Part shown: in pieces, positions 779 to 34,493 of the stretch
Position numbering within the stretch: the first letter of the stretch is position 1
Layout of the letters: each line of letters opens with the position of its first letter
DNA from: Auanema rhodensis
Lineage: Eukaryota; Animalia; Nematoda
Direction of reading: 5' to 3'
Assembly: GCA_964057225.1 (NCBI GenBank)
Contig: OZ059894.1
Span: 17,298,001 to 17,362,000, forward strand
Length of the DNA stretch: 64,000 nucleotides
Program-made: the position numbers and the translations under genes
The notes under the pieces: generated by a model
The model's database searches: none
What the model saw: the letters and a program-made list of their open reading frames with translations, nothing else
What the model was told of the DNA's origin: nothing

Positions 779-850
779 GGGCCGAGCCGGGGATCGATCC
801 CGGGACCTCTCGCACCCTAAGCGAGAATCATACCACTAGACCACTCGGCC
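779..850 (-). tRNA. tRNA-Pro(AGG)
   Basis: Consensus copy. Confidence 0.96.
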
Positions 851-1025
851 TGAAATATCCATTCACTACGATGAACCTTCTACGTTTCCATAATTATTTT
901 TAACTGAATATTATTAATCTGATATCTATAGGTGAATACTAAAGCTTAAAATTAATTGAATTTCAAGAGAACTTTCACTAAATACTAAAAAAAAGTACAC
1001 TTCTCGAAAAAAAATGTTAAAACGT

Positions 1026-1097
1026 GGGCCGAGCCGGGGATCGATCCCGGGACCTCTCGCACCCTAAGCGAGAATCATACCACTAGACCACTCGGCC
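1026..1097 (-). tRNA. tRNA-Pro(AGG)
   Basis: Consensus copy. Confidence 0.96.
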
Positions 1098-1272
1098 TGA
1101 AATATCCATTCACTACGATGAACCTCCTACTTTTCCATATATATTTTTAATTGAATATCATTAATCTGATATCTATAGGTGAATACTAAAGCTCAACATT
1201 AATTGAATTTCAAGAGAACTTAAACTAAATACGAAGAAGAAGTACACTTCTCGAAACAAAATGTTCAAACGT

Positions 1273-1344
1273 GGGCCGAGCCGGGGATCGATCCCGGAAC
1301 CTCTCGCACCCTAAGCGAGAATCATACCACTAGACCACTCGGCC
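1273..1344 (-). tRNA. tRNA-Pro(AGG), variant
   Basis: One substitution (cccggaacc versus cccgggacc). Confidence 0.92.
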
Positions 1345-1519
1345 TGAAATATCCATTCACTACGATGAACCTTCTACGTTTCCATAATTATTTTTAACTG
1401 AATATTATTAATCTGATATCTATAGGTGAATACTAAAGCTTAAAATTAATTGAATTTCAAGAGAACTTTCACTAAATACTAAAAAAAAGTACACTTCTCG
1501 AAAAAAAATGTTAAAACGT

Positions 1520-1591
1520 GGGCCGAGCCGGGGATCGATCCCGGGACCTCTCGCACCCTAAGCGAGAATCATACCACTAGACCACTCGGCC
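1520..1591 (-). tRNA. tRNA-Pro(AGG)
   Basis: Consensus copy. Confidence 0.96.
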
Positions 1592-1766
1592 TGAAATATC
1601 CATTCTTTACGATGAACCTTCTACGTTTCCATAATTTTTTTTAACTGAATATTATTAATCTGATATCTATAGGTGAATACTAAAGCTTAAAATTAATTGA
1701 ATTTCAAGAGAACTTCCACTAAATACTAAGAAGAAGTACACTTCTCGAAACAAAATGTTGAAACGT

Positions 1767-1838
1767 GGGCCGAGCCGGGGATCGATCCCGGGACCTCTCG
1801 CACCCTAAGCGAGATTCATACCACTAGACCACTCGGCC
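1767..1838 (-). tRNA. tRNA-Pro(AGG), D-stem variant
   Basis: One substitution (gagattcata versus gagaatcata). Confidence 0.9.
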
Positions 1839-2013
1839 TGAGATATCCATTCACTACGATGAACCTTCTACGTTTCCATAATTTTTTTTAACTGAATATT
1901 ATTAATCTGATATCTATAGGTGAATACTAAAGCTTAAAATTAATTGAATTTCAAGAGAACTTCCACTAAATACTAAGAAGAAGTACACTTCTCGAAAAAA
2001 AATGTTAAAACGT

Positions 2014-2085
2014 GGGCCGAGCCGGGGATCGATCCCGGGACCTCTCGCACCCTAAGCGAGAATCATACCACTAGACCACTCGGCC
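2014..2085 (-). tRNA. tRNA-Pro(AGG)
   Basis: Consensus copy. Confidence 0.96.
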
Positions 2086-2260
2086 TGAAATATCCATTCA
2101 CTACGATGAACCTTCTACGTTTCCATAATTATTTTTAACTACATATTATTAATCTGATATCTAGAGGTGAATACTAAAGCTTAAAATTAATTGAATTTCA
2201 AGAGAACTTCCACTAAATACTAAGAAGAAGTACACTTCTCGAAAAAAAATGTTAAAACGT

Positions 2261-2332
2261 GGGCCGAGCCGGGGATCGATCCCGGGACCTCTCGCACCCT
2301 AAGCGAGAATCATACCACTAGACCACTCGGCC
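2261..2332 (-). tRNA. tRNA-Pro(AGG)
   Basis: Consensus copy. Confidence 0.96.
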
Positions 2333-2507
2333 TGAAATATCCATTCACTACGATGAACCTTCTACGTTTCCATAATTATTTTTAACTGAATATTATTAAT
2401 CTGATATCTATAGGTGAATACTAAAGCTTAAAATTAATTGAATTTCAAGAGAACTTTCACTAAATACTAAAAAAAAGTACACTTCTCGAAAAAAAATGTT
2501 AAAACGT

Positions 2508-2579
2508 GGGCCGAGCCGGGGATCGATCCCGGGACCTCTCGCACCCTAAGCGAGAATTATACCACTAGACCACTCGGCC
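2508..2579 (-). tRNA. tRNA-Pro(AGG), D-stem variant
   Basis: Same variant as 532-603. Confidence 0.9.
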
Positions 2580-2754
2580 TAAAATATCCATTCACTACGA
2601 TGAACCTTCTACGTTTCCATAATTAATTTTAACTGAATATTATTAATCTGATATCTATAGGTGAATACTAAAGCTTAAAATTAATTGAATTTCAAGAGAA
2701 CTTCCACTAAATACTAAGAAGAAGTACACTTCTCGAAAAAAAATGTTAAAACGT

Positions 2755-2826
2755 GGGCCGAGCCGGGGATCGATCCCGGGACCTCTCGCACCCTAAGCGA
2801 GAATCATACCACTAGACCACTCGGCC
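2755..2826 (-). tRNA. tRNA-Pro(AGG)
   Basis: Consensus copy. Confidence 0.96.
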
Positions 2827-3001
2827 TGAAATATCCATTCACTACGATGAACCTCCTACTTTTCCATATATATTTTTAATTGAATATCATTAATCTGATA
2901 TCTATAGGTGAATACTAAAGCTCAACATTAATTGAATTTCAAGAGAACTTAAACTAAATACGAAGAAGAAGTACACTTCTCGAAACAAAATGTTCAAACG
3001 T

Positions 3002-3073
3002 GGGCCGAGCCGGGGATCGATCCCGGAACCTCTCGCACCCTAAGCGAGAATCATACCACTAGACCACTCGGCC
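3002..3073 (-). tRNA. tRNA-Pro(AGG), variant
   Basis: Same variant as 1273-1344. Confidence 0.92.
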
Positions 3074-3248
3074 TGAAATATCTATTCACTACGATGAACC
3101 TTCTACGTTTCCATAATTATTTTTAACTGAATATTATTAATCTGATATCTATAGGTGAATACTAAAGCTTAAAATTAATTGAATTTCAAGAGAACTTCCA
3201 CTAAATACTAGAAAAAAGTACACTTCTCGAAACAAAATGTTCAAACGT

Positions 3249-3320
3249 GGGCCGAGCCGGGGATCGATCCCGGGACCTCTCGCACCCTAAGCGAGATTCA
3301 TACCACTAGACCACTCGGCC
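3249..3320 (-). tRNA. tRNA-Pro(AGG), D-stem variant
   Basis: gagattcata variant. Confidence 0.9.
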
Positions 3321-3495
3321 TGAAATATCCATTCTTTACGATGAACCTTCTACGTTTCCATAATTTTTTTTAACTGAATATTATTAATCTGATATCTATA
3401 GGTGAATACTAAAGCTTAAAATTAATTGAATTTCAAGAGAACTTCCACTAAATACTAAGAAGAAGTACACTTCTCGAAACAAAATGTTGAAACGT

Positions 3496-3567
3496 GGGCC
3501 GAGCCGGGGATCGATCCCGGGACCTCTCGCACCTTAAGCGAGATTCATACCACTAGACCACTCGGCC
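3496..3567 (-). tRNA. tRNA-Pro body with anticodon changed to AAG (Leu)
   Basis: + strand gcaccttaagcgag gives CTCGC-TT-AAG-GT-GC; also carries the D-stem variant. Confidence 0.75.
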
Positions 3568-3742
3568 TGAGATATCCATTCACTACGATGAACCTTCTAC
3601 GTTTCCATAATTTTTTTTAACTGAATATTATTAATCTGATATCTATAGGTGAATACTAAAGCTTAAAATTAATTGAATTTCAAGAGAACTTCCACTAAAT
3701 ACTAAGAAGAAGTACACTTCTCGAAAAAAAATGTTAAAACGT

Positions 3743-3814
3743 GGGCCGAGCCGGGGATCGATCCCGGGACCTCTCGCACCCTAAGCGAGAATCATACCAC
3801 TAGACCACTCGGCC
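3743..3814 (-). tRNA. tRNA-Pro(AGG)
   Basis: Consensus copy. Confidence 0.96.
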
Positions 3815-3989
3815 TGAAATATCCATTCACTACGATGAACCTTCTACGTTTCCATAATTATTTTTAACTACATATTATTAATCTGATATCTAGAGGTGAA
3901 TACTAAAGCTTAAAATTAATTGAATTTCAAGAGAACTTCCACTAAATACTAAGAAGAAGTACACTTCTCGAAAAAAAATGTTGAAACGT

Positions 3990-4061
3990 GGGCGGAGCCG
4001 GGGATTGATCACGGGACCTCTCGCACCCTAAGCGAGAATCATACTACTAGACCACTCGGCC
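3990..4061 (-). pseudogene. Degenerate tRNA-Pro(AGG)
   Basis: Substitutions in the acceptor stem, T arm and D loop (ggcggag, gattgatcacggg, atactactag). Confidence 0.75.
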
Positions 4062-4236
4062 TGAGATATCCATTCACTACAATGAAACTCCTACTATTCC
4101 ATATATATTTTTAACTGAATATTATTAATCTGATATCTATAGGTGAACCCTCAAGCTTAAAATTAATTGAATTTCAAGAGAACTTCAACTAAATACTAAG
4201 AAGAAGTACACTTCTCGAAAAAAAATGTTAAAACGT

Positions 4237-4279
4237 GGGCCGAGCCGGGGATTGATCCCGGGACCTCTCGCACCCTAAG
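4237..4279 (-). pseudogene. tRNA-Pro 3' half, interrupted in the anticodon stem by LTR A
   Basis: tRNA sequence stops at ...caccctaag and non-array sequence starts at 4280. Confidence 0.92.
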
Positions 4280-4707
4280 TATCGCGAATGCGATTATTCA
4301 TCATTCAATCGATGCAATCTCATCACGTTGGCAGATGAGATTCACGGGCACTCTGTTTTATACCACCGTCGCGGACGGTCGCTTTTCTCTCTTCTCGTTG
4401 CTGTCTTTATCTTATCACTCATCTAGTCTGAACCACCGTTCTATTCTTGTCCTTCCGTAAGACTATCTTTTGTCTCATTAGTGATGTATATCTAGTCTTA
4501 TTACATTTCACTCTAGTCTTCTATGTACTTTATCTAGTCTTAGTATATATCTTCTGGGCCTTATATTCTGTATTATGTATATCTGAATAGCATATGAATG
4601 AATCTTTCTTCCTCTAATAGTCTTTCATGTTAACAGGGCATAGAATAGAAAGTGTGAACCTGGGAGGCTATTTGAAGAGCTTTCTATCTTCAAAATGGTG
4701 CATCGGC
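4280..4707 (+). mobile_element. 5' LTR (~4280-4694) and tRNA-Gly primer-binding site (PBS) of BEL/Pao element A
   Basis: Begins tatcgcgaatgc (compare TGTCGGCGAATGC of element D and TGTCGCGA of element E), ends ...caaa, and is followed by TGGTGCATCGGC (4696-4707), complementary to a tRNA-Gly(GCC) 3' end. Confidence 0.75.
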
Positions 4708-17905: not shown

Positions 17906-20104
17906 GATCAACAAAATACACAAAGACAATAATCATCAAGGCAAACATTTCACGCTTATTCAATTGAGACAAAAATTCTACATACCAAATATAACCGGTG
18001 TCATCAGACAAACATTGAAAAACTGTGTGACATGTAAAAGATTTCAATCACATCCTTATGAATTACCAGATATGCCATCGCTACCAAAAGATAGAGCGAT
18101 TCTTACAAGAGCATTCTTTTCAACAGGGTGTGATCTTATGGGCCCCTTCACCCTTTGAAATGGGTCTAAAGTCCATATCTGTCTGTTTACATGCATGACA
18201 ACTAGAGCAATTCATTTAGAGGTAGTCACCAATTAATCCACAGTTGATTTTATGAATGCATTCACTAGATTTATATCACGCCGAGGTACTCCAGAAATTA
18301 TGCGTAGTGACTGCGCAGGAAACTTTATATTGAGCTCAAAAATATTAGAAACCCTTGAAAATACATCGGATTACAACGAAAGAAGCTTACTAAATACACT
18401 AGCACAACAAAAAATTAAATGGATATACAACACTCCATTATCACCCTGGAAAGGTGGATGTTGGGAACGTTTAGTAGGTGTAACCAAAGCTTCACTCAAA
18501 AAATGTTTCATTCCTAGTCGAATGTCCCTGGATGACTTACACACAGTCATTGTAAAAAAAGAAGCTATAATTAATACACGCCCACTCACCCATCCACACC
18601 CAGATAATTTAGATACTCTACCCATAAGGCCAATTGACTTTTTAACATCAGCCATAAAGTTTTCATTACCTGAAAACAACGCGGATACTCATATATTTGA
18701 TATCCATAGCGATATTCAAACGATTCAATCAACAGAGCAAGCGCTAGCATCTAAATTTTGGAAACGATTTCAAGAGGAATATCTAACAAGCTTAAAAAAT
18801 ATATTTAAGCATAAACACCATAGAAAAAATCACACAAACATCTTCCCCCAACCAGATGAAATAGTATTGATACAAAATGACATGTTGCCCCGAGGAACAT
18901 GGAAGCTTGGGCGCATCATAGAAACAATCACTAGTTCAGACGGCAACATACGTTCCGCAAAAGTAGTAACTAGTAATGGAAACATAATTAGCAGATCAAT
19001 CAATCAGCTCTATCCTTTGGAGATAAGAAGCAACATACAGAACAACAGTACTCCAATAGAAAGTATACCCGAACAGAATCCCCATGAACCAATAGAACAT
19101 GAAAGACATGAGGATAATAATATAAATAATACCGAACCCAATCATTACATTGAATATGAATCGGATAACTCTGAACATGACAATACATACACTCCAGAAG
19201 AAGAAAACAATGAGGAAATCACACATGGTCAAAATAAAAGTCAAACACAGGCTCGAAAATCGTTAAAACCAAAAACATCATTTGAGAAAGATAATGTCAG
19301 TGAGAAGGACAATATACAAGCCATTCCATTAAAAATGTCATATGCTCTACAACAAAGAAAGAACAAGATAAACCCTAAAATAGCAGCTGATATAATGAAG
19401 GCTCTCTCTTTACCTATTAAAATAACTTTGAGTCATGCTCAAGAAATGAATAACTGCCAGGACCATAACATGTTCACGAAAAAACTCATAGCAAATCCTC
19501 ATTGTTCGCTAGAATTAGCAACATTGACTATCATAATAATCATAATGGCAGTTACACTCATAGTCTCTTGTCTTTGTCGCATAGTGTATAGCCAATACAA
19601 ATATAAGACATGGTCAACGAATACTCGAAATATGCTTAATGTGCTTAATATTCAAAACAGAAATCAAGAAGTCCAAGAAGAAGAAGACCTCGAAATGGTC
19701 CAAAACACAACAGACAACAATGAAACTACAGATATGACACATATAAACACACGAGAAGACGGTAACAGAGAACAAGAAACCTCTCAAAACAATATTTATC
19801 CCACGCTAAACTTCACAAGAAAAACACCGAAATTCTCTATCCTCACCAGAGGATCTCAATCCTCCTTACCTTCATTATTTGCAATAATCTTAGTTGTATA
19901 CATAGGAAACTCCCATTCTTGCTCCGATGTTCATGTACAACATTATGTTAACATACGTTGCGATCAAAACTTAGAGTGTTATCACGAATATAGTCAAGAC
20001 ATAATATTCTCTCCCGGAACAAAACAGTTATGTATCAACATAATACACTCTAATCATGAAATTGGCCAATTCAAAATAACTAAACTATACACGGAACATA
20101 TCAA
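17906..20104 (+). pseudogene. Integrase and truncated envelope of BEL/Pao element C (possibly the 3' part of element A)
   Basis: Own zinc finger (IHKDNNHQG...CVTC), GCDLMGP, SDCAGNF, GGCWERLV, RSINQLYPLE; in-frame TGA at 18156; then ANPHC, a TM segment and the start of a Gc-like domain, cut off at the tRNA at 20105. Confidence 0.88.
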
Positions 20105-20176
20105 GGCCGAGTGGTCTAGTGGTATGATTCTCGCTTAGGGTGCGAGAGGTCCCGGGATCGATCCCCGGCTCGGCCC
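20105..20176 (+). tRNA. tRNA-Pro(AGG)
   Basis: Consensus sequence in the opposite orientation to the 1-4279 array; native upstream flank replaced by element C. Confidence 0.92.
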
Positions 20177-20282
20177 ACGTTTTAACATTTTTTTTCGAGA
20201 AGTGTACTTCTTCTTAGTATTTAGTTGAAGTTCTCTTGAAATTCAATTAATTTTGAGCTTGAGTGTTCACCTATAGATATCA

Positions 20283-20620
20283 CGTTCCATATTGGCTCCT
20301 AGGGTTCCGGCTAGGTAACCATATGGACTTTAATAGTGTGAATGCCATTGTAAAAGTAACAGAGATTAGAGAAAAGAAGTTTATTCAGAATATGGAATAA
20401 CAATTATAAAAGCAAAATATAATAATAAGATAAATGAAACTACATGTTATGAGAAAGCCAACCTAGTTGCTTTCTCAGGGGTTTATATAGCAAAATATTA
20501 ATTACAAATATAATTGAATTTATACAAAAAGTAGTTCAGGTCTAGTTTCTTATTGAATTCTATTAACCAAAAGTCGGTTGACGTTGTCAACCGCCTTCTT
20601 TATAAGACACGTATGGAACA
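20283..20620 (-). mobile_element. Solo LTR (338 bp), TGTTCCATA...TATGGAACG, 4-bp TSD ATCA
   Basis: Interrupts the array spacer; ATCA at 20279-20282 and 20621-20624; minus-strand TATATAAA (20482-20489) and AATAAA (20380-20385). Confidence 0.85.
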
Positions 20621-20693
20621 ATCAGATTAATAATATTCAGTTAAAAATAATTATGGAAAAGTAGGAGGTTCATCGTAGTGAATGAACATTTTA

Positions 20694-20705
20694 GGCCGAG
20701 TGGTC
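20694..20705 (+). pseudogene. 5' 12 nt of a tRNA-Pro gene split by element D
   Basis: GGCCGAGTGGTC is followed by the LTR; the remainder lies at 28405-28469. Confidence 0.9.
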
Positions 20706-23700
20706 TGTCGGCGAATGCCTGACTAGAAATGAAATACAATAATTTAACCTAGAAAGATAACTCTTCTGAAACTCTAAACCATTGTCTAATAACCTTGTAA
20801 TTGTATCATTAACCTCTTGCGCAACATTCTTAAAGGATATTGAACTTTTATCACCTCTATAGTTTACATTGACCTGACCTTTGTATTCAAATATCAAATA
20901 TCACCTTCAAGCTAAATCATATATAAAGCCCAAGAAACCTTCACTCTCACTCTTAATTTAATTCTACCACTGAACTTATACCGATCTTATAATAAACCTT
21001 TCTCATTTAACCAACTGTTTGGATTCGCCACTAACTCATATTATCCCCATTAAACGGGGAACAACCGAGTATAGACGCTCGTCATTGGGAACATTAAAAA
21101 CCCAAATTGGTGCAACGACCAAACCAGGTATTAATTGTTAGAAACTTTCTTATCATATTTTTTTCTCTTTTTCATACTTTCCATCTCACTCTTCTTCACA
21201 TTTTCCTGACGATGAGACCGAACTAGCACTTACCGCACCGCATACAACCCTTTTTACATCACTGCGCATTTCGAAAACGAACATTAGCAAATTACTTTTG
21301 AAACCACCTCAACTTTCCATACCCACATTCAATGGAGATAACAAAACCTTTCCGACATTTTGGAGACAATTTAAAACGCTCATTCACCAAGACCCTGACC
21401 TCAATAATAGGCAAAAAAGCATTTATTTAGCTGAAGCTCTTAAAGGTTCAGCACGAGTTCATCTTGAAAATAAACCATTAGATGGCACTGCGTATGAACG
21501 TATTATATCTACTCTTAAAACCACTTACGCACCAAAACTAAAAGTTGACTACCGTATTCATGATGAACTGGTGAAATTACCTCCTGCAAAAAATGACCCC
21601 ATGTCAGTTAGATCTCGCGTGAATGAAATCAGAGCACTTCTTGATCAGCTTGAGACTGATACACTTTATAATTCTCAAGACCCCGCTTGGGTCAAACTTA
21701 TCACAACTAAATTTCCTATTGATATCATCAATATGCTCTGTTGGAGATCATCTAGGGCAACCTCTATAAAACAACTACTAAGAAACATTGAGGAAACGGC
21801 CGACTCAATGGAAAATTTTTCAATTTATTCTTCTAAATCTCCTTTTATCCCGCAATACCATGCTCAAACTAATTCAATTTCTCCCTTGAAACATAACTCA
21901 CATATTACTGCTGTTACGAAAACCGAACGCCCATGCGTATTTTGTGACCAAAACGGACATCGATCCGCAAAATGTTTAACCATACATAATCCTCAACAGA
22001 GGAGAGACATAATAAAACAAAAAAACAGGTGCTGGATTTGTTTCAGTCCTACACACACTAGCACTAAGTGTACCTTTGATAAATGTAAAATATGTAATAG
22101 AGATCATCACCCATCTCTTTGTCTCCCTCCTGCTTTATCAAAATCATCTAATAAAAAAGCAACAATGGGTATCAATTGCTCTATTTCGCAATCAACTCAC
22201 ACTCCACCTTCGCCCGCATATCTTATGACTTCTAAAGTATCAATTTTTAACCCCCATACAGGTAAGTTCCACACCAAATTATTGTTTTTCGACCCTGGAG
22301 CAACTCAAAGCTTCATTTACGAGCCGGCAGCCAAAGAATGCCAGCTCAAAACTTTAAATTCCCAATTAATCACAGCAACCGGTTTCTCCGGGAGCTGTGA
22401 GGCATTTAATTCTTTAACGGTCGAAGCAAGTTTAAGAACTCCATTTGGAAAAAATATCATACTTACGCTCCTCACCTCACCCAAACCTCTCACAGGAAAA
22501 CTAAAGAGCTGTCAACTTTCTCTAAAAGACAAAAAAGCTCTAGAACAATCTAATATAACCATTACTAACCAATTGGTGGATGGTGAATTATTCATTCCCG
22601 ATATTTTGCTAGGTATGGATTGGTGTGATACAATCATACATGATACCAAACCTACTATACTTCCATCGGGATTGAAAGTCAAACATACCCAGATTGGACC
22701 CTGTATTTACGGTAAGCAAATACCGAACGATAATATCGCAGCCATAAATACTCTTATTGTTAACCCTGTGATACCAGAAGACGTTATGATTAAACAACTT
22801 TTTGAAATAGATAACTCGGGAATTTCTCCACACGAAGGAGCCTTGAACCGATCGGAGCTATTCTTCAATGAATATACTTCGCTAATAAAATTCGACAAGG
22901 GTTTTGTTATGGCTCCATTACCTCTTAAATCAAACGCCACAAAAATTCAATCCAATCGAAGCATGGCATTAGCCACTCTAAACAGATTACAGAAATCTCT
23001 CAAAGAGGAACATAACCAGCTACAACACTATCATCAAACCATTATGCGATATATAGAGGAAGGTGTGGTGGAACAAGTTCCACTTACTTCAGAGAACTCT
23101 TTGCTCTACTACATGCCGCATAGAGGGGTATGGAAGCCCAACAAGAGCAAACCGCTGAGGGTTGTGTTTAACGCTTCAGCAAAGCAAAAAGGCCAACTCT
23201 CATTAAATGATGTTACGGAAACAGGTGAAAGTTTTAACAATAAAATCATAGATATTCTGATAGGGATACGGATCAAAAAGTACTTCCTCATGTGCGATAT
23301 TGAGGGTGCCTTCACCCAAATAAGGATAACTAATGATCATAAAGATCTCTGCCGCTTTCTCTGGTTACGCGATCCTCACAAAGGTACCACTCCAGATAAC
23401 ATTTTAGAATTAAGATTTAACCGACTGGCGTTTGGCATAACAGCCAGTCCGTCCATACTGAATATGTCACTCTACGCATTCTTGCAAAGCCTAGAGTCGC
23501 ACTTAGTTCCGGAAACCCTACGGTACCTATATGTGGACAATATCTTCTACACGACAAACAGCTCAGAAGATTTACATAGCATATATGAAGAATCTAAGCA
23601 GATTTTTTCTCGAATATCTATGAACATAAGAGAGTATTATAGCAACTACACCAACTTCAACTCAACCGTACCAGACAAGGATAAACATCCAGATCTGAAC

Positions 23701-26700
23701 CCAAAAATATTAGGCATTAAACATTATTCAGATAAAGACATTTTTTCGATAAACGGAGTAGCGGCTCCCCTTTTACTGCATTTCAAACTACTACTACGCC
23801 AAGTAATGAATGGGTCTATAGACTGGAAAGAACAAGTGCCAAGCGATGTGGTCAATAGCTGGAATACAGTCAGTAATAAAATAGGAACAGCTACGATTCA
23901 GATTCCACGAAAGCTGACAGATACATCAGAATGCCGAGAGATTTGGATATTTGTAGACGCTAGTGTACTAGCTATTGCTGCATGTGCCTTCTGCACATCA
24001 CCTACAACACGGAGTCCCCTGGTCATGGGTAAGATTAAATTAGCTCCAAAAAACAGAACATTGACAATTCCACGTTTGGAAATGTCTGCGATTCTCATAG
24101 GTATGAAAATGGCCGAAACCATACACAACAATTTACCAACACATGAGGTCTCCATCAACATCGCTTCCGACAGCCAGATAGCTTTATCTTGGCTGTTCAC
24201 TAAAAAGAATATACCTGTGTTCGTAAGCAATTTACGCCAGAATACTGACCAAATTGCAAGAAAATTAGAGCTAAAAGGAGCCAATATAACGTATCACTAC
24301 GTGGACACGGATCATAATCCGGCAGACATAGGCACTAGAGGCACCACTGATATTGCCCTTCTTAAGGACAAATGGCTTTTTTCTCCTGGTTGGCTATTAA
24401 ATAAGAACGATAGACCAGCAAAGGAATTCAGAGCACCCTTAGAAGAAGAAGAACCTTCAATGCTTATACTACCAGTCACCACAAACAATCCTGTATTAGA
24501 CAATCTTTTAGGCAAACGCAACAAAACGCCAACATCATATTTATTAAAAGCAGCAACAACAGAATGGCAAGTATCCCAGTTTATTAACACAACCGCTGAG
24601 ATACTGCTTATAAAAGAAGCTCAGACTCATCTTTCAAATTCATATAAAAAACAATTTCGATTAAAACAGGATGGGAATGGACTAATCTGCATACAGACTC
24701 GGTTCACCAATTCATCACTTCCAACAAAAACTAAGTTTCCATATCTTCTTCCCAAAAAATCTACTTTAGGTAAACTCATTCTTATGTTCCTACACAGGAC
24801 GAATGGTCATGCCGGAGTTAGCCAATTACTGTACCTCTTTATGACAAGGTTCTTCATGACAGCGGCTAGACAAGTATGCAAATCAATAATAAAAAGATGT
24901 GTGCCATGTCAAAAGACTCTAAGTAACCCATTTTCAATAGAATACTTTGCCCCGTTACCGGAGGACAGAGTGACAACAGCCATGCCATTTAGACATACGG
25001 GCCTTGATTGCATAGGTCCCATAAAATTCAGAAAAAATCAGCATATATACGTTGTGATATTCACCTGCCTTACTATTAGAGCCGTCCATTTAGAACCAAT
25101 TAATGACATGAGTTCGAACTCTTTTATCAATGCCTTCATTCGATTTGTAGCGCGGAGAGGTTTACCGCATGTTCTACGATCAGACAACGGGGCCAATTTC
25201 ACTCATGCGGCCAAAATAATTCACACATTAGAGGAACATAGTAGGGAACACCAGACTAATTTTATCAACTATATACAAAATCACAATATCACATGGATAT
25301 TAAACACTCCCAGCGCTCCCTGGACTGGTGGGGTTTGGGAGAGATTAGTTGCTATTACAAAGAATGCACTTGTGAAAACACTATCACTTAAGTTAATAGA
25401 AAAAGACCAACTAGTTACAGCAATAATTAAAATAGAAGGAATCATGAACTCACGGCCCATCACGTATACAGATTCCGAGAATTTTCACGAGAATCCACTA
25501 ACGCCAGCAGATTTTTTAACTCATGGCTCCCCCATACTCATACCAGTTGATAATGTAGACAGTTTAGGTAACAGACTCGACCTACCCAACACGATCGCAA
25601 GCAACAAACAAGCGTTTGAAAATTTACAGAAAATCAAAATAATAGCCGAAGCATTCTGGAACACATGGTCACACGAATATCTTCTTACTTTAAGGCATGC
25701 ACATGCATCAAGGAAAATGGGGCGCCATAACTTGCGACACCCATATCACAACGAAATAGTACTTGTAGAAGAGGACCATACAAATAGGAACAATTGGAAT
25801 ATGGCTAGGGTAATCGAACTAATTCATTCTTCAGACAAAGTAGTTCGGACCGCCAAGATAAAAACAGGTAGCGGTAAGATATTGACAAAACCAGTAGAGC
25901 GATTATACCCTTTAGAACTTTTTGATGAATTCACAGAAACTCAGCGAAAAACCGCACATATTAACCATGCCACCTATTCAACACACCCAAACACAAGGCA
26001 TACAAATACGAATTTCTTGACTAATATCATGAAATTCTTATTATTAATACAACTATTTCTTGTCGCCACAGCTGAGCCATTATTCACCTGCTCATACTCT
26101 CATATACTATTTCCCGCACAAACAAAACCATCGACATTTTGTATTAATGGGGACTGTCATGATTTACCAGCCAACCAATCAAAAGATATTCAACTTCAAG
26201 TGTCTGTAATTCCAAAAACTACAGCAGTTACTCGCTACGACAAAGATAGGCGGCAATCTCAGATTTGTCATCTCCCCCACCCCTGCGATTTTCCTCCACC
26301 TGCGTTATTGCATATAATAGGCAACCCACATTGTAACCCTTTCTTAGCTATTTTGATAGCTCTTACTCCAATAATAGGCTGCGCTCTTTTTTGCATTATC
26401 GGGGGCCTAATCTATAAAAAATTAAAAACACACCGCCAACAGCACACAATTTCGTACATCCCTTCTCTCTTATTCGCAATCTTTTATCTCACATGCCAAG
26501 CGCAAGCTTGTGGATCCCCCAACGCGCACAAAAACATAGAATTCTTTTGCGACGATTTACACAATTGCACAAAAATAACCAACGAAGAAATTTCATTCAA
26601 TCCCCTACAAAACTCTCTTTGCTCCTACATAAAATATCAAAACTCCACTATAGGCAAACTAGAAATTCAAATAATTCAGCAAAAATTTTTATGTCAAAAA

Positions 26701-28404
26701 GTTTCCCAAGGATTTACTCGCATTACTAACCTAACTATCCACTCCTCTCATAGATGCGCCGGTACAACTCACTGCCCATGGGGCACCGGATGCAATGATA
26801 TCGGACAGGATACTTTCGTAGCCGAACTACATTCAGCTTACGAAAATCCTGGAAGAACCTTCTGCACCAGAGCCGGAGGAGGCCTATTCAACAGCTGTGG
26901 ACTTCCTATAGAAGGATGCATTTTATTTAGGCCAACTTATCAGCCCGAAAACGAAGAAGTATACGAAGAAATTAAATGCATACAATGGAAACAGGAAGTG
27001 CAAGCAAAATTATTAATCACATACCTCAATAACACTCACCAATACGATATTTTCCTACAACCCTACCGAAAATATGAGTTTCACGGAATTTCATTACAGA
27101 TTTCGTCGGTTACAACAAAAGCAACGACGGAACTATACAACAAAATTTTTCTCACATCTGAGACTAAAAGCTACATGATACCGGAACAAATAAAACCAGC
27201 GGTAATATGCAGCAATGCACGAATCGCAGCAGATAAGTTTAATGCATGCCACATACGAAAGCCTTGCCCATGTTTGGGGGCCGCAGCGCAGCTCTCTTGC
27301 AATTGCGATTCAGCAACACAAAGAGAACTGAAAAAATATAAACTTCCACAAATTAATACAAATTATAGAATCACAAAAGAAGCAGGAACAATAACTGTTT
27401 TATCACAAATGGAAGAATCAACGCTCACAATGGAAAACCCGCAATTTAGCATCGAAAGCTTATATACTAATAGACATCCTTGTTCTTCAGATTTTCAAAT
27501 GTTAACAGGATGCTACAAATGCAGAGAAGGAACAACGCTGAATATTACATGTGAAACAAAGGACGAACTGAATGCCATTCTGAACTGCGACTCCTTTTCT
27601 ACTACAATACGATGCTCTGACCAAAATCCCGCCACAACGGTCAAACTATATTTCAATGAACCCAAAGTACAAGAAAACTGTACTCTGACTTGCGGACGAG
27701 CAACAAAACAAATTATACAGCTAAGTACCAGACTACACTACATAAGCGACACTACCATTTTTTCAGAAGAATCGATCAAACTACATAATGGAACATCCGG
27801 ACTATCATGGAATCTCCCGAATTTGGAACCGCTTTTCGACGTCATCCATGATAATTGGAAATGGATAGTACCTGCCGTAGCTGCAATCACTGCAGGTTCA
27901 TACTTATTATACATAGCAGCCCCATTCCTTACATCATTACTTCTTCCTGCTATACTCTCTTATTGCTGTGTGAGAAACTCAAACCGCAACCCTCGCCCGG
28001 CAATGTCGGCGAATGCCTGACTAGAAATGAAATACAATAATTTAACCTAGAAACATAACTCTTCTGAAACTCTAAACCATTGTCTAATAACCTTGTAATT
28101 GTATCATTAACCTCTTGCGCAACATTCTTAAAGGATATTGAACTTTTATCACCTCTATAGTTTACATTGACCTGACCTTTGTATTCAAATATCAAATATC
28201 ACCTTCAAGCTGAATCATATATAAAGCCCAAGAAACCTTCACTCTCACTCTTAATTTAATTCTACCACTGAACTTATACCGATCTTATAATAAACCTTTC
28301 TCATTTAACCAACTGTTCGGATTCGCCACTAACTCATATTATCCCCATTAAACGGGGAACAACCGAGTATAGACGCTCGTCATTGCGAACATTAAAAACC
28401 CAAA
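20706..28404 (+). mobile_element. Structurally complete BEL/Pao (belpaovirus) element D with envelope, inserted in the tRNA A-box; TSD TGGTC
   Basis: 401-bp LTRs 20706-21106 and 28004-28404 (4 mismatches counted by eye); PBS TGGTGCAACGACC at 21108-21120; TSD at 20701-20705 and 28405-28409. Confidence 0.96.
21298..28020 (+). CDS. Single-ORF Gag-protease-RT-RNase H-integrase-envelope polyprotein (phlebovirus Gn/Gc-like env)
   Basis: PTFNGD (DUF1759), three Cys-His knuckles, FDPGA, CDIEGAF, YVDN, FVDAS, HxxxxH...CxxC, DCIGP/SDNGANF/GGVWE; signal-like MKFLLL at 26029; Cys-rich Gc-like HRCAG...PGRTFCT...GC; C-terminal TM; stop lies inside the 3' LTR. No ATG at the 5' end. Confidence 0.93.
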   Translation: MKPPQLSIPTFNGDNKTFPTFWRQFKTLIHQDPDLNNRQKSIYLAEALKGSARVHLENKPLDGTAYERIISTLKTTYAPKLKVDYRIHDELVKLPPAKNDPMSVRSRVNEIRALLDQLETDTLYNSQDPAWVKLITTKFPIDIINMLCWRSSRATSIKQLLRNIEETADSMENFSIYSSKSPFIPQYHAQTNSISPLKHNSHITAVTKTERPCVFCDQNGHRSAKCLTIHNPQQRRDIIKQKNRCWICFSPTHTSTKCTFDKCKICNRDHHPSLCLPPALSKSSNKKATMGINCSISQSTHTPPSPAYLMTSKVSIFNPHTGKFHTKLLFFDPGATQSFIYEPAAKECQLKTLNSQLITATGFSGSCEAFNSLTVEASLRTPFGKNIILTLLTSPKPLTGKLKSCQLSLKDKKALEQSNITITNQLVDGELFIPDILLGMDWCDTIIHDTKPTILPSGLKVKHTQIGPCIYGKQIPNDNIAAINTLIVNPVIPEDVMIKQLFEIDNSGISPHEGALNRSELFFNEYTSLIKFDKGFVMAPLPLKSNATKIQSNRSMALATLNRLQKSLKEEHNQLQHYHQTIMRYIEEGVVEQVPLTSENSLLYYMPHRGVWKPNKSKPLRVVFNASAKQKGQLSLNDVTETGESFNNKIIDILIGIRIKKYFLMCDIEGAFTQIRITNDHKDLCRFLWLRDPHKGTTPDNILELRFNRLAFGITASPSILNMSLYAFLQSLESHLVPETLRYLYVDNIFYTTNSSEDLHSIYEESKQIFSRISMNIREYYSNYTNFNSTVPDKDKHPDLNPKILGIKHYSDKDIFSINGVAAPLLLHFKLLLRQVMNGSIDWKEQVPSDVVNSWNTVSNKIGTATIQIPRKLTDTSECREIWIFVDASVLAIAACAFCTSPTTRSPLVMGKIKLAPKNRTLTIPRLEMSAILIGMKMAETIHNNLPTHEVSINIASDSQIALSWLFTKKNIPVFVSNLRQNTDQIARKLELKGANITYHYVDTDHNPADIGTRGTTDIALLKDKWLFSPGWLLNKNDRPAKEFRAPLEEEEPSMLILPVTTNNPVLDNLLGKRNKTPTSYLLKAATTEWQVSQFINTTAEILLIKEAQTHLSNSYKKQFRLKQDGNGLICIQTRFTNSSLPTKTKFPYLLPKKSTLGKLILMFLHRTNGHAGVSQLLYLFMTRFFMTAARQVCKSIIKRCVPCQKTLSNPFSIEYFAPLPEDRVTTAMPFRHTGLDCIGPIKFRKNQHIYVVIFTCLTIRAVHLEPINDMSSNSFINAFIRFVARRGLPHVLRSDNGANFTHAAKIIHTLEEHSREHQTNFINYIQNHNITWILNTPSAPWTGGVWERLVAITKNALVKTLSLKLIEKDQLVTAIIKIEGIMNSRPITYTDSENFHENPLTPADFLTHGSPILIPVDNVDSLGNRLDLPNTIASNKQAFENLQKIKIIAEAFWNTWSHEYLLTLRHAHASRKMGRHNLRHPYHNEIVLVEEDHTNRNNWNMARVIELIHSSDKVVRTAKIKTGSGKILTKPVERLYPLELFDEFTETQRKTAHINHATYSTHPNTRHTNTNFLTNIMKFLLLIQLFLVATAEPLFTCSYSHILFPAQTKPSTFCINGDCHDLPANQSKDIQLQVSVIPKTTAVTRYDKDRRQSQICHLPHPCDFPPPALLHIIGNPHCNPFLAILIALTPIIGCALFCIIGGLIYKKLKTHRQQHTISYIPSLLFAIFYLTCQAQACGSPNAHKNIEFFCDDLHNCTKITNEEISFNPLQNSLCSYIKYQNSTIGKLEIQIIQQKFLCQKVSQGFTRITNLTIHSSHRCAGTTHCPWGTGCNDIGQDTFVAELHSAYENPGRTFCTRAGGGLFNSCGLPIEGCILFRPTYQPENEEVYEEIKCIQWKQEVQAKLLITYLNNTHQYDIFLQPYRKYEFHGISLQISSVTTKATTELYNKIFLTSETKSYMIPEQIKPAVICSNARIAADKFNACHIRKPCPCLGAAAQLSCNCDSATQRELKKYKLPQINTNYRITKEAGTITVLSQMEESTLTMENPQFSIESLYTNRHPCSSDFQMLTGCYKCREGTTLNITCETKDELNAILNCDSFSTTIRCSDQNPATTVKLYFNEPKVQENCTLTCGRATKQIIQLSTRLHYISDTTIFSEESIKLHNGTSGLSWNLPNLEPLFDVIHDNWKWIVPAVAAITAGSYLLYIAAPFLTSLLLPAILSYCCVRNSNRNPRPAMSANA

Positions 28405-28469
28405 TGGTCTAGTGGTATGATTATCGCTTAGGGTGCGAGAGGTCCCGGGATCGATCCCCGGCTCGGCCC
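28405..28469 (+). pseudogene. 3' part (nt 8-72) of the tRNA-Pro gene split by element D
   Basis: Resumes with the duplicated TGGTC. Confidence 0.9.
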
Positions 28470-28644
28470 ATGTTTTAACATTTTTTTTCGAGAAGTGTAC
28501 TTCTTCTTAGTATTTAGTTGAAGTTCTCTTGAAATTCAATTAATTTTGAGCTTGAGTGTTCACCTATAGATATCAGATTAATAATATTCAGTTGAAAATA
28601 ACTATGTAAAAGTAGGAGGTTCATCGTAGTGAATAGATATTTTA

Positions 28645-28716
28645 GACTGAGTGGTCTAGTGGTATGATTCTCGCTTAGGGTGCGAGAGGTCCCGGGATCG
28701 ATCCCCGGCTCGGCCC
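28645..28716 (+). tRNA. tRNA-Pro(AGG) with altered acceptor stem (possible pseudogene)
   Basis: 5' end is GACTGAG instead of GGCCGAG; the rest is consensus. Confidence 0.7.
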
Positions 28717-28779
28717 ACGTTTTAACATTTTTTTTCGAGAAGTGTACTTCTTCTTATTATTTAGTTGAAGTTCTCTTGA

Positions 28780-29997
28780 TTAGAATAAAGGAATAGATTT
28801 TGTGGTCTACAGCTGTGAGCATTTCTTTAGTGGAGTGATAATTGTTCGGATGAATGAGAACATCTTCAACGATGTGGTAAGGGAATTTGTTAAAGATCAT
28901 AGCGGCACACATTTCGCGGGATACCGTAGCTCCGGCTGCTTCAATCTGATAAGTGCCTTGGTTTCCCCGAAGGTTTCCTTACATGATTTTGCATTATTGC
29001 TTGCAAATCTTAAATTGCGTAGTTGTGCTAAGAGAGAGTTTATATCGGAGAAATAATCTCCAAATTCACAAACTAATTCTTCTCGCATGAGCTCATAGTT
29101 TTGGGTAGAGGGTTCAATTCCTCTTATTGCTATTTGTGAATTGCCTTTAATGCTCTCGCAGAGCAGATTGACCTTTTCTAAGATCGTAAATTGTTCATTA
29201 TCATGAACTAATCTATTGAAACGGCCCCAGAACGATTTGAAGTTCTTTGGTTTGCCATCAAATGTCGGTAGCGACATTGTTGGTTTTTGAATGTTAGTTT
29301 GTTGGGTGTGTAGGAAAGTTTTGATAAGTTCCAGAAAATGATCATTTGCTTTGCTCTCTGTTTCATTGTTTTCCGCTGAGCAATTGCTGTTGCTCTCAGA
29401 TTCATTCTTATGCAGGGTTTTTCTCAGCTTTCTAAGTATGCGTTTGTTCGTTTAATGCTTATATTCCTTTTTCTTTCTTTTTGGTGTGACTTGACGTGGT
29501 CTAATGATTGCCACGATTTTTATCAAGTATGTTTTTTGCTCAAACACGCTTGGTTTGAGTTGTATCTTACCTGCCACGCGGGACTTAAAGCGGCTAAGAT
29601 CTAAACTAGCCGATGCACCAATTTGTGGCGTTATACCGCAAGGGTAGAGAATGGTTTATGAGTAGAACACAAACGAATAAGTAGAAGAAGGTTTATTGAT
29701 AAACTTAACAAGACAAGCACGGAATAAAATCACTGGCTGCGATCGTTGAAGATGTAAGAGTGCTTGTAATTTTTGGGCGGTTCTTGGCCTGAATTAAAGT
29801 GTTACTTACGCCACATGTGAACACATATGGTGTGCAAAATGTTTTAATGCAGATTCAAAGGAAGAAGATGAAGAAAGAAAAACAGAGAGAGAAAAAGAGA
29901 GAGAGATAGATAGATAGAGAGAAAAAGGGAGAGAGAGAGAAAAAGAAAGAAACAAAAAAGAAACAAACAAACGAAAACTTACTCGCTTATCGCGACA
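28780..29997 (-). mobile_element. 5' fragment of BEL/Pao element E: LTR (29622-29997), tRNA-Gly PBS, truncated gag
   Basis: Minus strand begins TGTCGCGATAAG; pyrimidine-rich microsatellite in the LTR; ...CAAA-T-TGGTGCATCGGC; DUF1759-like LPTFDGKPKNFKSFWGRF at 28897-29277. Confidence 0.88.
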
Positions 29998-30104
29998 CTG
30001 ATATCCATAGGTGAATACTCAAGCTCAAAATTAATTGAATTTCGAGAGAACTTCAACTAAATAATAAGAAGAAGTACACTTCTCGAAAAAAAATGTTAAA
30101 ACAT

Positions 30105-30176
30105 GGGCCGAGCCGGGGATCGATCCCGGGACCTCTCGCACCCTAAGCGAGAATCATACCACTAGACCACTCGGCC
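30105..30176 (-). tRNA. tRNA-Pro(AGG)
   Basis: Consensus copy in a 247-bp unit. Confidence 0.95.
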
Positions 30177-30351
30177 TGAAATATCCATTCACTACGATGA
30201 AACTCCTACTTTTCCATATATATTTTTAACTGAATATTATTAATCTGATATCTATAGGTGAATACTAAAGCTCAACATTAATTGAATTTCAAGAGAACTT
30301 CCACTAGATACTAAGAAGAAGTACACTTCTCGAAACAAAATGTTAAAACGT

Positions 30352-30423
30352 GGGCCGAGCCGGGGATCGATCCCGGGACCTCTCGCACCCTAAGCGAGAA
30401 TCATACCACTAGACCACTCGGCC
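30352..30423 (-). tRNA. tRNA-Pro(AGG)
   Basis: Consensus copy; last unit of the array. Confidence 0.95.
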
Positions 30424-30503
30424 TGAAATATCCATTCACTACGATGAACCTCCTACTTTTACATAATTATTTTCAACTGAATATTATTAATCTTAATCTA
30501 ATC

Positions 30504-33500
30504 TTTATAAATAATTTTATTCTGGAATTATGAACTGATTTAGATCATATCTTTTCTTCTCCATTCCCTGGTAATCAGCTTTGTTGGTATGATCGCTGAT
30601 GCAAATGAGGCAGGAAATAGAGCAGATATAGCTTTAAAGCTGACTGAAGCTGTCTATAGAAGAACAGAACTGGAAACCTTAAAAGATCGACAAGTAAATA
30701 GTTTTATATATTATATATCTTAGTATTCAAAAGTTAAATTATTTAACAAATGTTTTTGTTATTTCAGGAACAACTTTTACTATCAGTTATACCTGCATAT
30801 TTAGCAGACAAAGTCTCTAAGTCAATTGTACAATCTAGTAGTGCAAATCGAATGAATTTCAAACATCATAAATTGTTTCATGATTTACATGTTCAAGTGC
30901 ATGACAATGTCAGGTAAACAGAATTAATAATAATTTTGAATTATTATAAATCTATTTAAGTATTCTTTTTGCCGATATTGTTAATTTCACTGTGTTAGCT
31001 GCACAGTTAACTGCCAAAGATCTTGTTCGAACGCTCAATGAGTTGTACAGTAAATTCGATCGTGATGCTCAAGTATCTTTAAAGGAAATTCCGATGAAAA
31101 CTACGCTTGTTTCAGAGATTGCAATGTATGCGAATTAAGTTTCTTGGTGATTGTTACTACTGTGTAAGTGGAATGCCGGTTAACCGACCAAATCATGCTG
31201 ATATGTGTGTAGTTATGGGGCTCGAAATGATTAAAACTATTAAGTAATTTCTTATTTTTCAAATGTATCTGACAGCAATATTTGCAGGCAGATTCGTTTA
31301 GCAACAGGTGTTGATGTCAATATGAGAATAGGCGTTCATACTGGAAGTGTTTTATGTGGAATCTTAGGATTGCGTAAATGGCAATTCGATATCTGGAGTG
31401 ACGATGTGACTTTGGCGAATCACATGGAATCAGCAGGAGTTCCTGGGTTTGACAGATATTTTCTTGTTCTCAGCACAACGTATATTACATTTAGAGCTGT
31501 GCATATTACTAAGACAACAAAAGATATGCTACTAGGGGATTACTGCATTGTTGATGCAAAGTAAGGTTCATCTGTGAGCAATTGCATCATTTTCGTTCAA
31601 ATTCAGATCAGATGATCCGCACGTATTAGCTTATGGAGAAGCAACATATCATATCTTGCCCGATAAAACATCAATGATCGAAAGAACTGCTTCTATCTAT
31701 AGGAATAGGTTCATTCAAACAGCGTTTTTAATTTTCGTGTGAGCTGTTTTCCAGGAGAAATATCGACTGTAGTCCTGATGAAAAGTCCACTTTATCACCA
31801 TCTGCGGGACCGACGCAAGGAAGAAAAAGCATGAAAGCAAAGGTAAAACGTTGATTTATTTGCTGAAAAATTGTTTTTTTTTCTTTCGAGGTTTCAAAAA
31901 TGGTTGAGTTTTGGGGTGCGGATGCGCCGTTTGCGAACTTCACGCGAAAAAAGTCTTCAACAAGCCACGATCCAAGCACAATCTTAGTGAGGAAGTGTTG
32001 TCAGCTGTGTTGACAACAACCTACGATCTATGATTTCAATCAGGAAAAAAAATATTTTCAGGATGAGACACCGCGAAGACCGCATTTCAGTAATACTATT
32101 CAATCAATGACCCTGATAGAAAATAATTTGACCAATTTCTCCTTGAATAAGTTGACCATTTTAAAGCTTTATGTTAACTTATATATTTTAATTTATAGCA
32201 TTAATAATATTTTTAATTGTCGACATCCAAGAATACAGGTTTCCCCATATCTGCTATGGCCGTTCAGGTAATAATAATCTTATTTTATTAACCAATGCTT
32301 AATAGTAAACTTTAGTTCCAAAGCTACAATTTGCAACATATCTGATTGTATGCTTTTCCTTTTGCTAGCGTTACCTGCAGCTCTGTCTAACTCGCTGATC
32401 TCAAGACTGTATTGCCCGTATGCTTAATCTTGATTTTATATTAATTACTAATGCCATGTTAAGAACTGAAGTCCAACAAACCACAGGTCTTCAACAATTT
32501 TTTTCACTTCTCTTCCTACTTGTTCTGTGCCTTTTCGATCATTTCTGTCCCTATGCTCATGCTCTAATAACTAGCATTTCTTTCTTGGTGTCATCCTTTG
32601 TTACAATAGGACCACATGTAAGTTTTCATAATTTTCCAAAACAATCTTCTCACTTCGTCCAGATTACGATTGCAAAATCGGAGAATGTACAGCCCTTCAC
32701 ATCTTTGGTATTCCTCCCAGGTTTGATTGAATACAGAAGAATTTTCCAATATTTTTCACTTTCAGCCTGTGTTTCACATTTGACTTCTGTATTTTTATTA
32801 TACCGTATACCATATTCATACCGATGCATTCTATTTTCAATTGATTATTTTCTTTTCGTTATACTGTTATCAGTGTTTCCAGTTTACCAAGCAAAACCTG
32901 ACCAGAAGTACTTGAGGTAGTTTGATATCTCTTGATCTAAACTAAAAATTTTTATCAAAAAGTTTCAGCTATCAATTGACAACTGTATTGATCAATCTGA
33001 CGTTTTTATTGGCTTTGCTGTTATTTTTGGATTGGATTGTGAGTCATGAGTACTATTCGAGGGAAAATCTTACATTTCCAACTTCAGACCAATTATGAAC
33101 GAAAAGCTGAATCTGCTTGTCATGTATCTTTCCAAAACGAAGAGCGTGATGTTGAAACAATGCAAGATATCAACAAACTTTTGATTGAAAATATCCTCCC
33201 AAGTACGGTAGCTGAGAAATTCTTGGTTCCAGATCGGCCAATTGAGGTTCAGCTGAGGATTTTCTTGAATATTGCCATCTTTAACACACATCCTTTAAGG
33301 ACTTATATGCTCGTCAACATGATAATGTTTGTGTTATGTTTGCATCGATTCCAAACTTCAAGGATTTTTGGTCTCAATGGGATACATCTAGAAAGCTAGA
33401 ATGTTTACGATTACTTAATGAAATTGTTTGCGAGTTTGATAAGGTTGTACTTCAATAGATTTTCTTTTTTTGTACATTTTCTTTCAGTTATTATCAAAAC

Positions 33501-34493
33501 CCAAGTTTTCTTCAATTGAGAAAATTAAAACTGTTGGCTCAACTTATATGGCAGCGTCTGGTTTGAATGAACAAGATTATGATTATGATGATTGTGTATG
33601 TTGCCTTGTCCTAGTCAAATTTTTTATTTCATAAACTTTAGGATTATATTGATGATAACAAGAATAGTGCTAGCAGTCGAGCAAACAACATGGCAAGTTT
33701 TAACTGTTTTCTATCATGAGAATTATTTTTGAAATCGTTATGCTTAAGGCTTTCCGAAATGCAACAGTTATGATTGAATTTGCTATGGCTATGTCTCAAA
33801 TATTGGAACAACTTAATAGGGATTCTTTCCAAAACTTCGAGCTCCGAATCGGTATAATCTGGTGTTTTTGATTATTTTCATCTATCTCATATATTTGAAG
33901 GAATGAGTGTGGGATCACTTGTATCTGGAGTTATTGGTGCCCAGAAACCTCAATATGATATATGGGGAAATACTGTGAATATAGCAAGTCGAATGGATAC
34001 CTATGGACAGCCAAGGAAAATTCATGTAAAGTTAAAACTAATTAGAAGTAGTAATGAATTGTATGTTAGGTAACGACTGATATGGGAGAAATATTGAGAA
34101 GAGGCGGTTTCAAAGTTACAAGTCGTGGGAAGATAAGCATAAAAGGAGTCAAAGTAAGTTAAAGACAACAAACACAAATATTTTATTTGTTTTACTATAG
34201 GAACCCATGGAAACATTTTTAATAGAAATTGATTCTAAAAGAAATTCAACAACATCAACTGTTACTTGATGATATTATATAAAAAAATATATATTGTAAA
34301 TAAAATAAAATGTATTAAATACATATTCAAAAGTTTTTTTTTATAAAAATGAGAAATGAATCAGCAAATAGAAAACAAAATTTTTAAATGAGCCATGTAG
34401 ATATATCAGGAAATAATTTGGCAATGACATCTGTTCAAGTGATAATAATAAAAAAACATTATGAAAAATGATTAAGATCATAGATCGTTAACT
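30504..34493 (+). pseudogene. 5'-truncated inverted duplicate of the adenylate cyclase gene (last coding base 34269)
   Basis: Position x mirrors 80003-x (partner 45510-49499). Retains C1a ([23 protein letters not shown]) and C2a ([21 protein letters not shown]); lacks the N-terminal exons. Confidence 0.9.

What the first reader, a model, noticed from the sequence alone, without database searches (positions are those of the whole stretch)
20279..30503. Three independent junctions at the same position, 69-73 bp upstream of a tRNA gene
Seen: the solo-LTR TSD ATCA sits at -73..-70 of the tRNA starting at 20694. Element E is flanked by CTGAT (29998-30002), equivalent to -69..-73 of the unit. The array/adenylate-cyclase breakpoint (30493) is exactly 70 bp from the tRNA 5' end at 30423. 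Two unrelated LTR families and a chromosomal rearrangement hit the same TAATCT|GAT site of a 247-bp unit. Inference: an exposed or bent site just upstream of the TFIIIB footprint, or a nuclease-sensitive site.
Basis: partly seen in the sequence, partly recalled or inferred. Interest (0 to 1): 0.72.

Follow-up and report, generated by a model that had tools for sequence, protein, structure and literature searches.

The report
Junction cluster in tRNA gene array
Two jumping-gene insertions and one chromosome break do sit at the same spot of a repeated tRNA gene, but four other junctions nearby lie elsewhere and two of the three likely come from a single cut, so this is probably ordinary rather than a true hotspot.

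Summary
The three junctions are real and lie at -73..-69 of a 247-bp tRNA-Pro unit; two of them recur in independent sequencing runs. They are 3 of 7 array junctions in the window; the others lie at +29/+30, -1/-2, +8..+12 and -113. Chance of such a cluster among 7 is 0.01-0.05, not 0.001. The three BEL elements sit at three different positions. Independence is doubtful. The E junction and the cyclase breakpoint bracket a two-unit piece whose end fragments add up to one whole spacer, and both carry rare variants of one spacer type. E has one clean end and one truncated end. The breakpoint carries a twice-templated insert primed at -70, typical of polymerase-theta repair. Best reading (0.40): E's integrase cut once, and the orphan half was repaired onto the cyclase duplication; two events among six coinciding has p 0.17-0.44. 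Rivals: a passive hotspot (0.28), pure chance (0.27), tethered targeting (0.05). The site is TA/AT-rich, but that feature does not predict the other four junctions. No genome was held, so the decisive genome-wide count is open.

The parts
1..4279 (-). Main tRNA-Pro(AGG) tandem array, 247-bp unit (72-bp gene + 175-bp spacer), 17.3 copies; runs off the window start
4279..4280 (.). Junction J1: left end of decayed BEL/Pao element A, at +29/+30 of the tRNA (anticodon arm)
20103..20104 (.). Junction J2: truncated end of element A joined to an inverted unit at -1/-2
20105..20282 (+). tRNA-Pro and left part of its spacer (to -70 of the next tRNA)
20283..20620 (-). J3: 338-bp solo LTR with 4-bp duplication ATCA (-73..-70); multicopy family with a primer-binding site in other copies; gypsy-type inferred from the 4-bp duplication only
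20706..28404 (+). J4: full-length BEL/Pao element D with Phlebovirus-G2-like env, inserted at +8..+12 (A box) of a tRNA with a 5-bp duplication; LTRs differ at 4 of 401 places
28470..28644 (+). Intact spacer of a rare variant type; the single nearest of 19 spacers to both end fragments of the two-unit piece
28779..28780 (.). Junction J5: truncated end of element E joined to an inverted unit at -113
28780..29997 (-). Element E: 5' LTR (about 29624-29997), primer-binding site and truncated BEL gag (DUF1759); J6 at 29997/29998 after -69
29998..30493 (-). Two-unit piece: right spacer fragment (-70..-1), tRNA 30352-30423, spacer, tRNA 30105-30176, left spacer fragment (-175..-69); the two end fragments make one spacer plus a 2-nt overlap
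30494..30503 (-). J7: 10-bp junction insert, two copies of unit positions -69..-65, each preceded by an A as at -70
30504..34493 (+). 3,990-bp inverted duplicate of the 3' part of an adenylate-cyclase-like gene (other copy 45510-49499), 1 mismatch; gene name read from its motifs, not from a family search

Best explanation
The three junctions share one register of the tRNA-Pro unit, but they likely record two events rather than three: a solo-LTR insertion, and one likely faulty BEL integration whose single cut gave both the E junction and the cyclase breakpoint. Shown: E has a clean LTR start after -69 and a truncated other end joined to an inverted array piece; the cyclase junction keeps the unit from -70 on and carries a twice-repeated templated insert; the two end fragments add up to one spacer. 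Inferred: E's integrase attacked -73..-69 and joined only one end; the orphan half of the target broke within that gap and was joined by polymerase-theta-type repair to the duplicated cyclase segment. For that half to lie two units upstream of E, the target would have been a two-unit circle, or the arms would have been rejoined out of register inside the array. The solo LTR's match to the same spot is then chance or at most a weak liking for a TA-rich stretch.
For: End fragments of 107 + 70 nt against a 175-nt spacer, the 'first and last repeats together form a monomer' pattern described for circle reintegration (PMC7403614, passages). Both fragments are uniquely nearest to spacer 28470-28644 among 19; -174T is shared only by that spacer and the E-side fragment, -51G and -38T only by that spacer and the cyclase-side fragment. 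Random left/right pairs share a single nearest spacer in 3 of 342 cases. The insert is unit -69..-65 twice; about 85% of such inserts in C. elegans are primed within 10 bp of the break, and reiterated inserts mostly use one flank (PMC5068794, passages). One normal end plus a truncated end joined to duplicated or inverted host DNA is the described product of one-ended retroviral integration (PMC5041404, passages). With the two merged, 2 of 6 events within 1-4 nt has p 0.17-0.44. Three BEL elements sit at three different unit positions.
Against: A simple linear reading needs no circle: J7 may be an inversion-duplication breakpoint at the array's fringe. A-B-A spacer patterns occur in 2 of 14 triplets of the main array, and fringe units resemble each other, so the 3 of 342 figure overstates the case. 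The cyclase duplication is very young (1 mismatch in 3,990), whereas E's gag appears to change frame near 28950 and neighbouring insertions are about 1-2% diverged; E may be older than J7. E's target-site duplication cannot be verified. The E-side fragment differs from spacer 28470-28644 at 4 places and the cyclase-side fragment at 3. One-ended integration is documented for retroviruses under drug or mutation, not for BEL elements in the papers I read.
Confidence: 0.4

Rival explanations
1. Passive hotspot: three independent events at an exposed, bendable or easily melted site in the short protein-free gap between one unit's terminator and the next unit's TFIIIB footprint.
For: Cluster p 0.01-0.05 under a uniform null. 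The site ranks in the top 1-10% for TA+AT steps at 17-25-bp windows and top 6% for low duplex stability at 21 bp. Two unrelated LTR families. A 175-bp spacer minus factor footprints would leave too little room for a nucleosome (own knowledge, not tested).
Against: 4 of 7 junctions fall elsewhere, two inside the gene. The TA/AT feature was chosen after the fact and is at or below average at the other four junctions; the fit is not significant without J7. Ranking is unremarkable at 7 and 11 bp. No hairpin.
Confidence: 0.28
2. Pure small-number coincidence: three independent events (gypsy-type insertion, BEL insertion, inversion-duplication breakpoint at the array fringe) happen to share a register and were picked out after the fact.
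For: p 0.01-0.05 is easily met in a scan of very many windows. Two of four LTR centres within 1 nt has p 0.07. The apparent ages of the events differ. A-B-A spacer patterns exist in the array (2 of 14).
Against: Leaves both the shared rare variants of the two end fragments and the 1-2-nt tightness to luck.
Confidence: 0.27
3. Protein-tethered targeting as for Ty1, Ty3 or TRE: integrases are steered by TFIIIB or Pol III to a fixed distance from the tRNA gene.
For: Such targeting has evolved repeatedly in yeasts and amoebae; the site falls within the Ty1 window (about 1 kb upstream) and the TRE3 window (40-150 bp downstream) (PMC5911963 Table 1, passages).
Against: One insertion per family at the site; the two other BEL elements lie inside the gene; tight known windows are 1-64 bp upstream, not 69-73; the cyclase junction is a repair joint, not an integrase product.
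Confidence: 0.05

Closest known systems
Reintegration of tandem-repeat circles (Rsp-like satellite arrays, Sproul et al. 2020, PMC7403614; passages read)
   Same: [quoted passage not shown]
   Different: Here a tRNA gene array, one end is an LTR terminus, and a circle is inferred only
One-ended (aberrant) retroviral integration (Varadarajan et al. 2016, PMC5041404; passages read)
   Same: One clean integrase-type end, other end truncated and joined to inverted or duplicated host DNA
   Different: Described for HIV and ASLV under drugs or mutation; here a natural BEL/Pao element and an inference from structure
Polymerase theta-mediated end joining in C. elegans (van Schendel et al. 2016, PMC5068794; passages read)
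   Same: Single-base priming, reiterated templated insert copied from one flank at the break
   Different: Enzyme not identified in this organism; junction joins distant loci instead of closing a deletion
tRNA-gene-targeting retroelements Ty1, Ty3, Tj1, DGLT-A, TRE5, TRE3 (Cheung et al. 2018, PMC5911963; passages with Table 1)
   Same: LTR insertions at a fixed-looking distance from a tRNA gene
   Different: No family is shown to insert repeatedly here; distance does not match the tight windows; hosts listed are fungi and amoebae
Dada transposons and Dewa in tRNA arrays (Kojima and Jurka 2013, PMC3706591; passages read)
   Same: Insertions in multicopy tRNA genes or their spacer, including the A box (as element D)
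   Different: Those are DNA or non-LTR elements with family-wide sequence specificity; not shown here

Membership tests
tRNA-gene-targeting LTR retrotransposons (Ty1/Ty3/DGLT-A type) | Most copies of a family lie in a narrow window next to tRNA genes | tested here: inconclusive
   One copy per family in the window; three BEL elements at +29/+30, +8..+12 and -69; contig data cannot show absence
tRNA-gene-targeting LTR retrotransposons (Ty1/Ty3/DGLT-A type) | Distance matches a known tight window (1-64 bp upstream) | tested here: not met
   -73..-69 against Table 1 of PMC5911963; only the broad Ty1 and TRE3 windows include it
tRNA-gene-targeting LTR retrotransposons (Ty1/Ty3/DGLT-A type) | Integrase binds TFIIIB or a Pol III subunit | not testable with these tools
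   No integrase of the solo or E family is in the window
BEL/Pao LTR retrotransposons (element E) | DUF1759 gag, LTR with TG..CA ends, primer-binding site after the LTR | tested here: met
   PF03564 E 4.9e-10; LTR ends and PBS
BEL/Pao LTR retrotransposons (element E) | 5-bp target-site duplication | not testable with these tools
   3' end of E is lost; only one flank exists. Element D shows 5 bp
Ty3/gypsy solo LTR | LTR with terminal inverted repeat, target-site duplication and PBS-bearing sister copies | tested here: met
   8-of-9 terminal inverted repeat and 4-bp duplication; PBS-like loose end in X5 and X9
Ty3/gypsy solo LTR | Gypsy-type pol in full-length copies | not testable with these tools
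   No internal sequence held; gypsy assignment rests on the 4-bp duplication (own knowledge)
Polymerase-theta end-joining scar | Short insert templated from a flank near the break with single-base priming | tested here: met
   Insert = -69..-65 twice, each after an A; compared with PMC5068794
Polymerase-theta end-joining scar | Dependence on POLQ | not testable with these tools
   Needs genetics
Reintegrated tandem-repeat circle | End fragments sum to one monomer | tested here: met
   107 + 70 = 175 + 2; note that any two same-register junctions give this
Reintegrated tandem-repeat circle | Both end fragments derive from the same monomer | tested here: inconclusive
   Shared rare variants with one spacer, but A-B-A patterns occur in 2 of 14 triplets

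The most novel reading that the evidence does not exclude
Pol III chromatin on an animal tRNA tandem array leaves one fixed 5-bp target about 70 bp upstream of each gene; integrases of two unrelated LTR superfamilies use it, and failed integration there breaks the chromosome and drives gene duplication. That would be an animal counterpart of Ty1/Ty3/TRE targeting, which searches did not list for nematodes.
Probability: 0.12. Interest if true: 0.65.

Novelty: new member of a known kind. Interest (0 to 1): 0.24.

Why it matters
On the best reading it is a natural example of a one-ended BEL integration in a tRNA array tied to a gene duplication: a modest addition to known processes. If a larger sample showed a sharp peak at -70 shared by gypsy- and BEL-type elements, it would extend tRNA-anchored integration to animals and give a defined, multicopy, testable target site.

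Tried and rejected
No whole genome is held, so the genome-wide count could not be made. Of 120 loose-end rows 24 were shown. At -73..-69 they show intact units, the window's own E and cyclase junctions, and one adapter-like end (recognised from memory); no new foreign junction. One other foreign sequence joins at -47 (X3) and -130 (X5), possibly a library linker. In X9 the LTR bins are explained by one family contig (depth 195.7) plus about 100 at the PBS side, with no extra depth at the other end, so no unit/solo junction contig was seen there. But the window's own J5 and solo junctions were also not listed in any run and contigs drop rare forms, so none of this is evidence of absence. Low-depth joints in X3 (depth 8-67) end at -66, -65 or -52 and are biased by the reference; not used. 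A metagenome scan with a 20-base spacer stretch gave 1 hit, a chance match without tRNA. No earlier findings for this genome or spacer; word search gave unrelated notes. No hairpin at the site. Assembly artefact rejected for J6 and J7. The paper on Cer element features was not held, so tRNA identities of the PBSs are not cited.

Full report
Setting. The window holds a 247-bp tRNA-Pro(AGG) tandem array at 1-4279 and broken fringe units between 20104 and 30493, three BEL/Pao elements (A, D, E), a solo LTR, and intron-rich genes. A nematode host is inferred from the env-bearing BEL element and gene structure; I did not test this. No genome is held. Positions below are relative to the tRNA 5' end; the spacer is -175..-1.

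Observation. The solo LTR (20283-20620) has the duplication ATCA at -73..-70. E's LTR starts at 29997 on the minus strand right after -69. The unit match ends at 30493 (-70) before a 10-bp insert and a 3,990-bp inverted duplicate with 1 mismatch. E's and the solo's LTRs are unrelated. The E junction is seen in 4 of 4 runs laid and the cyclase junction in the listed rows of 1 of 4, so both are real. E's flank is not a verified target-site duplication because E's other end is gone.

Self-comparison gives 7 junction events between the unit and foreign DNA: A at +29/+30, J2 at -1/-2, the solo at -73..-70, D at +8..+12, J5 at -113, E at -69/-68, J7 at -70/-71. Three of seven within 2, 4 or 5 nt has p 0.010, 0.032, 0.046 under a uniform null, before allowing for selection among many windows. 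Among the four LTR insertions alone, two centres within 1 nt has p 0.07. The three BEL elements use three different positions.

J7 is a repair joint. The other cyclase copy continues with different sequence. The insert is unit -69..-65 twice, each copy after an A as at -70. In C. elegans such inserts come from single-base priming, about 85% within 10 bp of the break, and reiterated ones mostly use one flank (PMC5068794, passages). So the break end likely lay at or just upstream of -70, inside the 5-nt gap that a BEL integrase would make at -73..-69 (5 bp taken from element D). Polymerase theta is inferred, not shown.

Are J6 and J7 independent? The piece between them has end fragments of 107 and 70 nt, one spacer plus 2 nt; any two same-register junctions would give this. 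More telling, both fragments are uniquely nearest to one intact spacer, 28470-28644, among 19 compared (the first main-array spacer was left out because of an indel), and share with it variants found in no other row: -174T on the left, -51G and -38T on the right. E has one clean end and a truncated end joined to an inverted array piece, as described for one-ended retroviral integration (PMC5041404, passages). Arrays whose end repeats make one monomer have been read as reintegrated circles (PMC7403614, passages). Against: A-B-A spacer patterns occur in 2 of 14 main-array triplets, fringe units resemble one another, and the duplication looks far younger than D (4 of 401 LTR differences) or the solo (7 other letters and 1 gap against the X9 family contig), while E's gag appears to change frame near 28950. 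The two private variants next to E do not date it: the four intact spacers outside the array core carry 1-3 each. If merged, 2 of 6 events within 1-4 nt has p 0.17-0.44.

Is the site special in sequence? It ranks in the top 1-10% for TA+AT steps at 17-25-bp windows in 4 of 4 units, but only top 14-31% at 7 and 11 bp, and forms no hairpin. A fitted preference reaches p 0.03-0.04 at 21 and 25 bp with all seven junctions, 0.12-0.31 at 11 and 17 bp, and 0.22-0.73 without J7; the other four junctions lie at or below the unit average. The feature was chosen after seeing the cluster, so it is weak support. Chromatin and TFIIIB position could not be tested.

Wider sample. Laying contigs of four runs showed no new junction at the site among 24 of 120 rows shown, but missed known window junctions too and covered only the spacer; it is inconclusive. 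A metagenome scan gave a chance hit.

Comparison with known systems. Tight tRNA-targeting windows in fungi and amoebae lie 1-64 bp upstream; only the broad Ty1 and TRE3 windows include this site (PMC5911963, passages with Table 1; the words metazoa, elegans and zebrafish did not occur in its main text). In animals, Dada and Dewa target tRNA genes or spacers (PMC3706591, passages). Searches (listings only) showed no tRNA-targeted LTR element in nematodes; the library lacks most subscription papers, and no supplements were read.

Verdict. Observation partly confirmed; 'three independent junctions' not shown. Single cut plus one coincident insertion 0.40, passive hotspot 0.28, pure chance 0.27, tethered targeting 0.05. 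These weights are my judgement and the top three are close. Interest 0.24.

Noticed in passing
window 9594-12916 (-): RNA-virus-like insert (Viral_helicase1 and RdRP_2, split over two frames) nested among BEL sequences between 1,129-bp inverted repeats (8436-9555 / 16778-17905, 97.8%), with a 63-bp LTR-like copy at 12820-12882 marking one edge.
   Followed up: no
window 28400-28409, 21095-21110, about 29621-29624, about 4690-4696: In A, D and E the 5' LTR's CA is followed by a 3-nt linker before the primer-binding site; D's 3' LTR keeps two or three of these linker bases at the host junction, which may mean an unprocessed end was integrated.
   Followed up: partly
window 20706-28404: Element D has one open 2,292-codon frame with a Phlebovirus-G2-like env and sits in the A box of a tRNA gene.
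   Followed up: partly
window 30504-34493 and 45510-49499: Very young 3,990-bp inverted duplication of the 3' part of an adenylate-cyclase-like gene around an 11-kb segment; which far junction (34493 or 45510) is native was not resolved.
   Followed up: partly
window 1097-3814: The main array has a 7-unit (1,729-bp) higher-order repeat: spacers at 1097/2826, 1591/3320 and 1838/3567 are identical, 2085/3814 nearly so, but 1344/3073 do not match.
   Followed up: partly
window 3496-3567: One unit has an anticodon change read by ARAGORN as tRNA-Leu(AAG) on a tRNA-Pro body.
   Followed up: no
window 20104-28779: This three-unit segment with the solo LTR and D is inverted relative to the rest of the array, and both its ends join truncated BEL elements.
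   Followed up: partly
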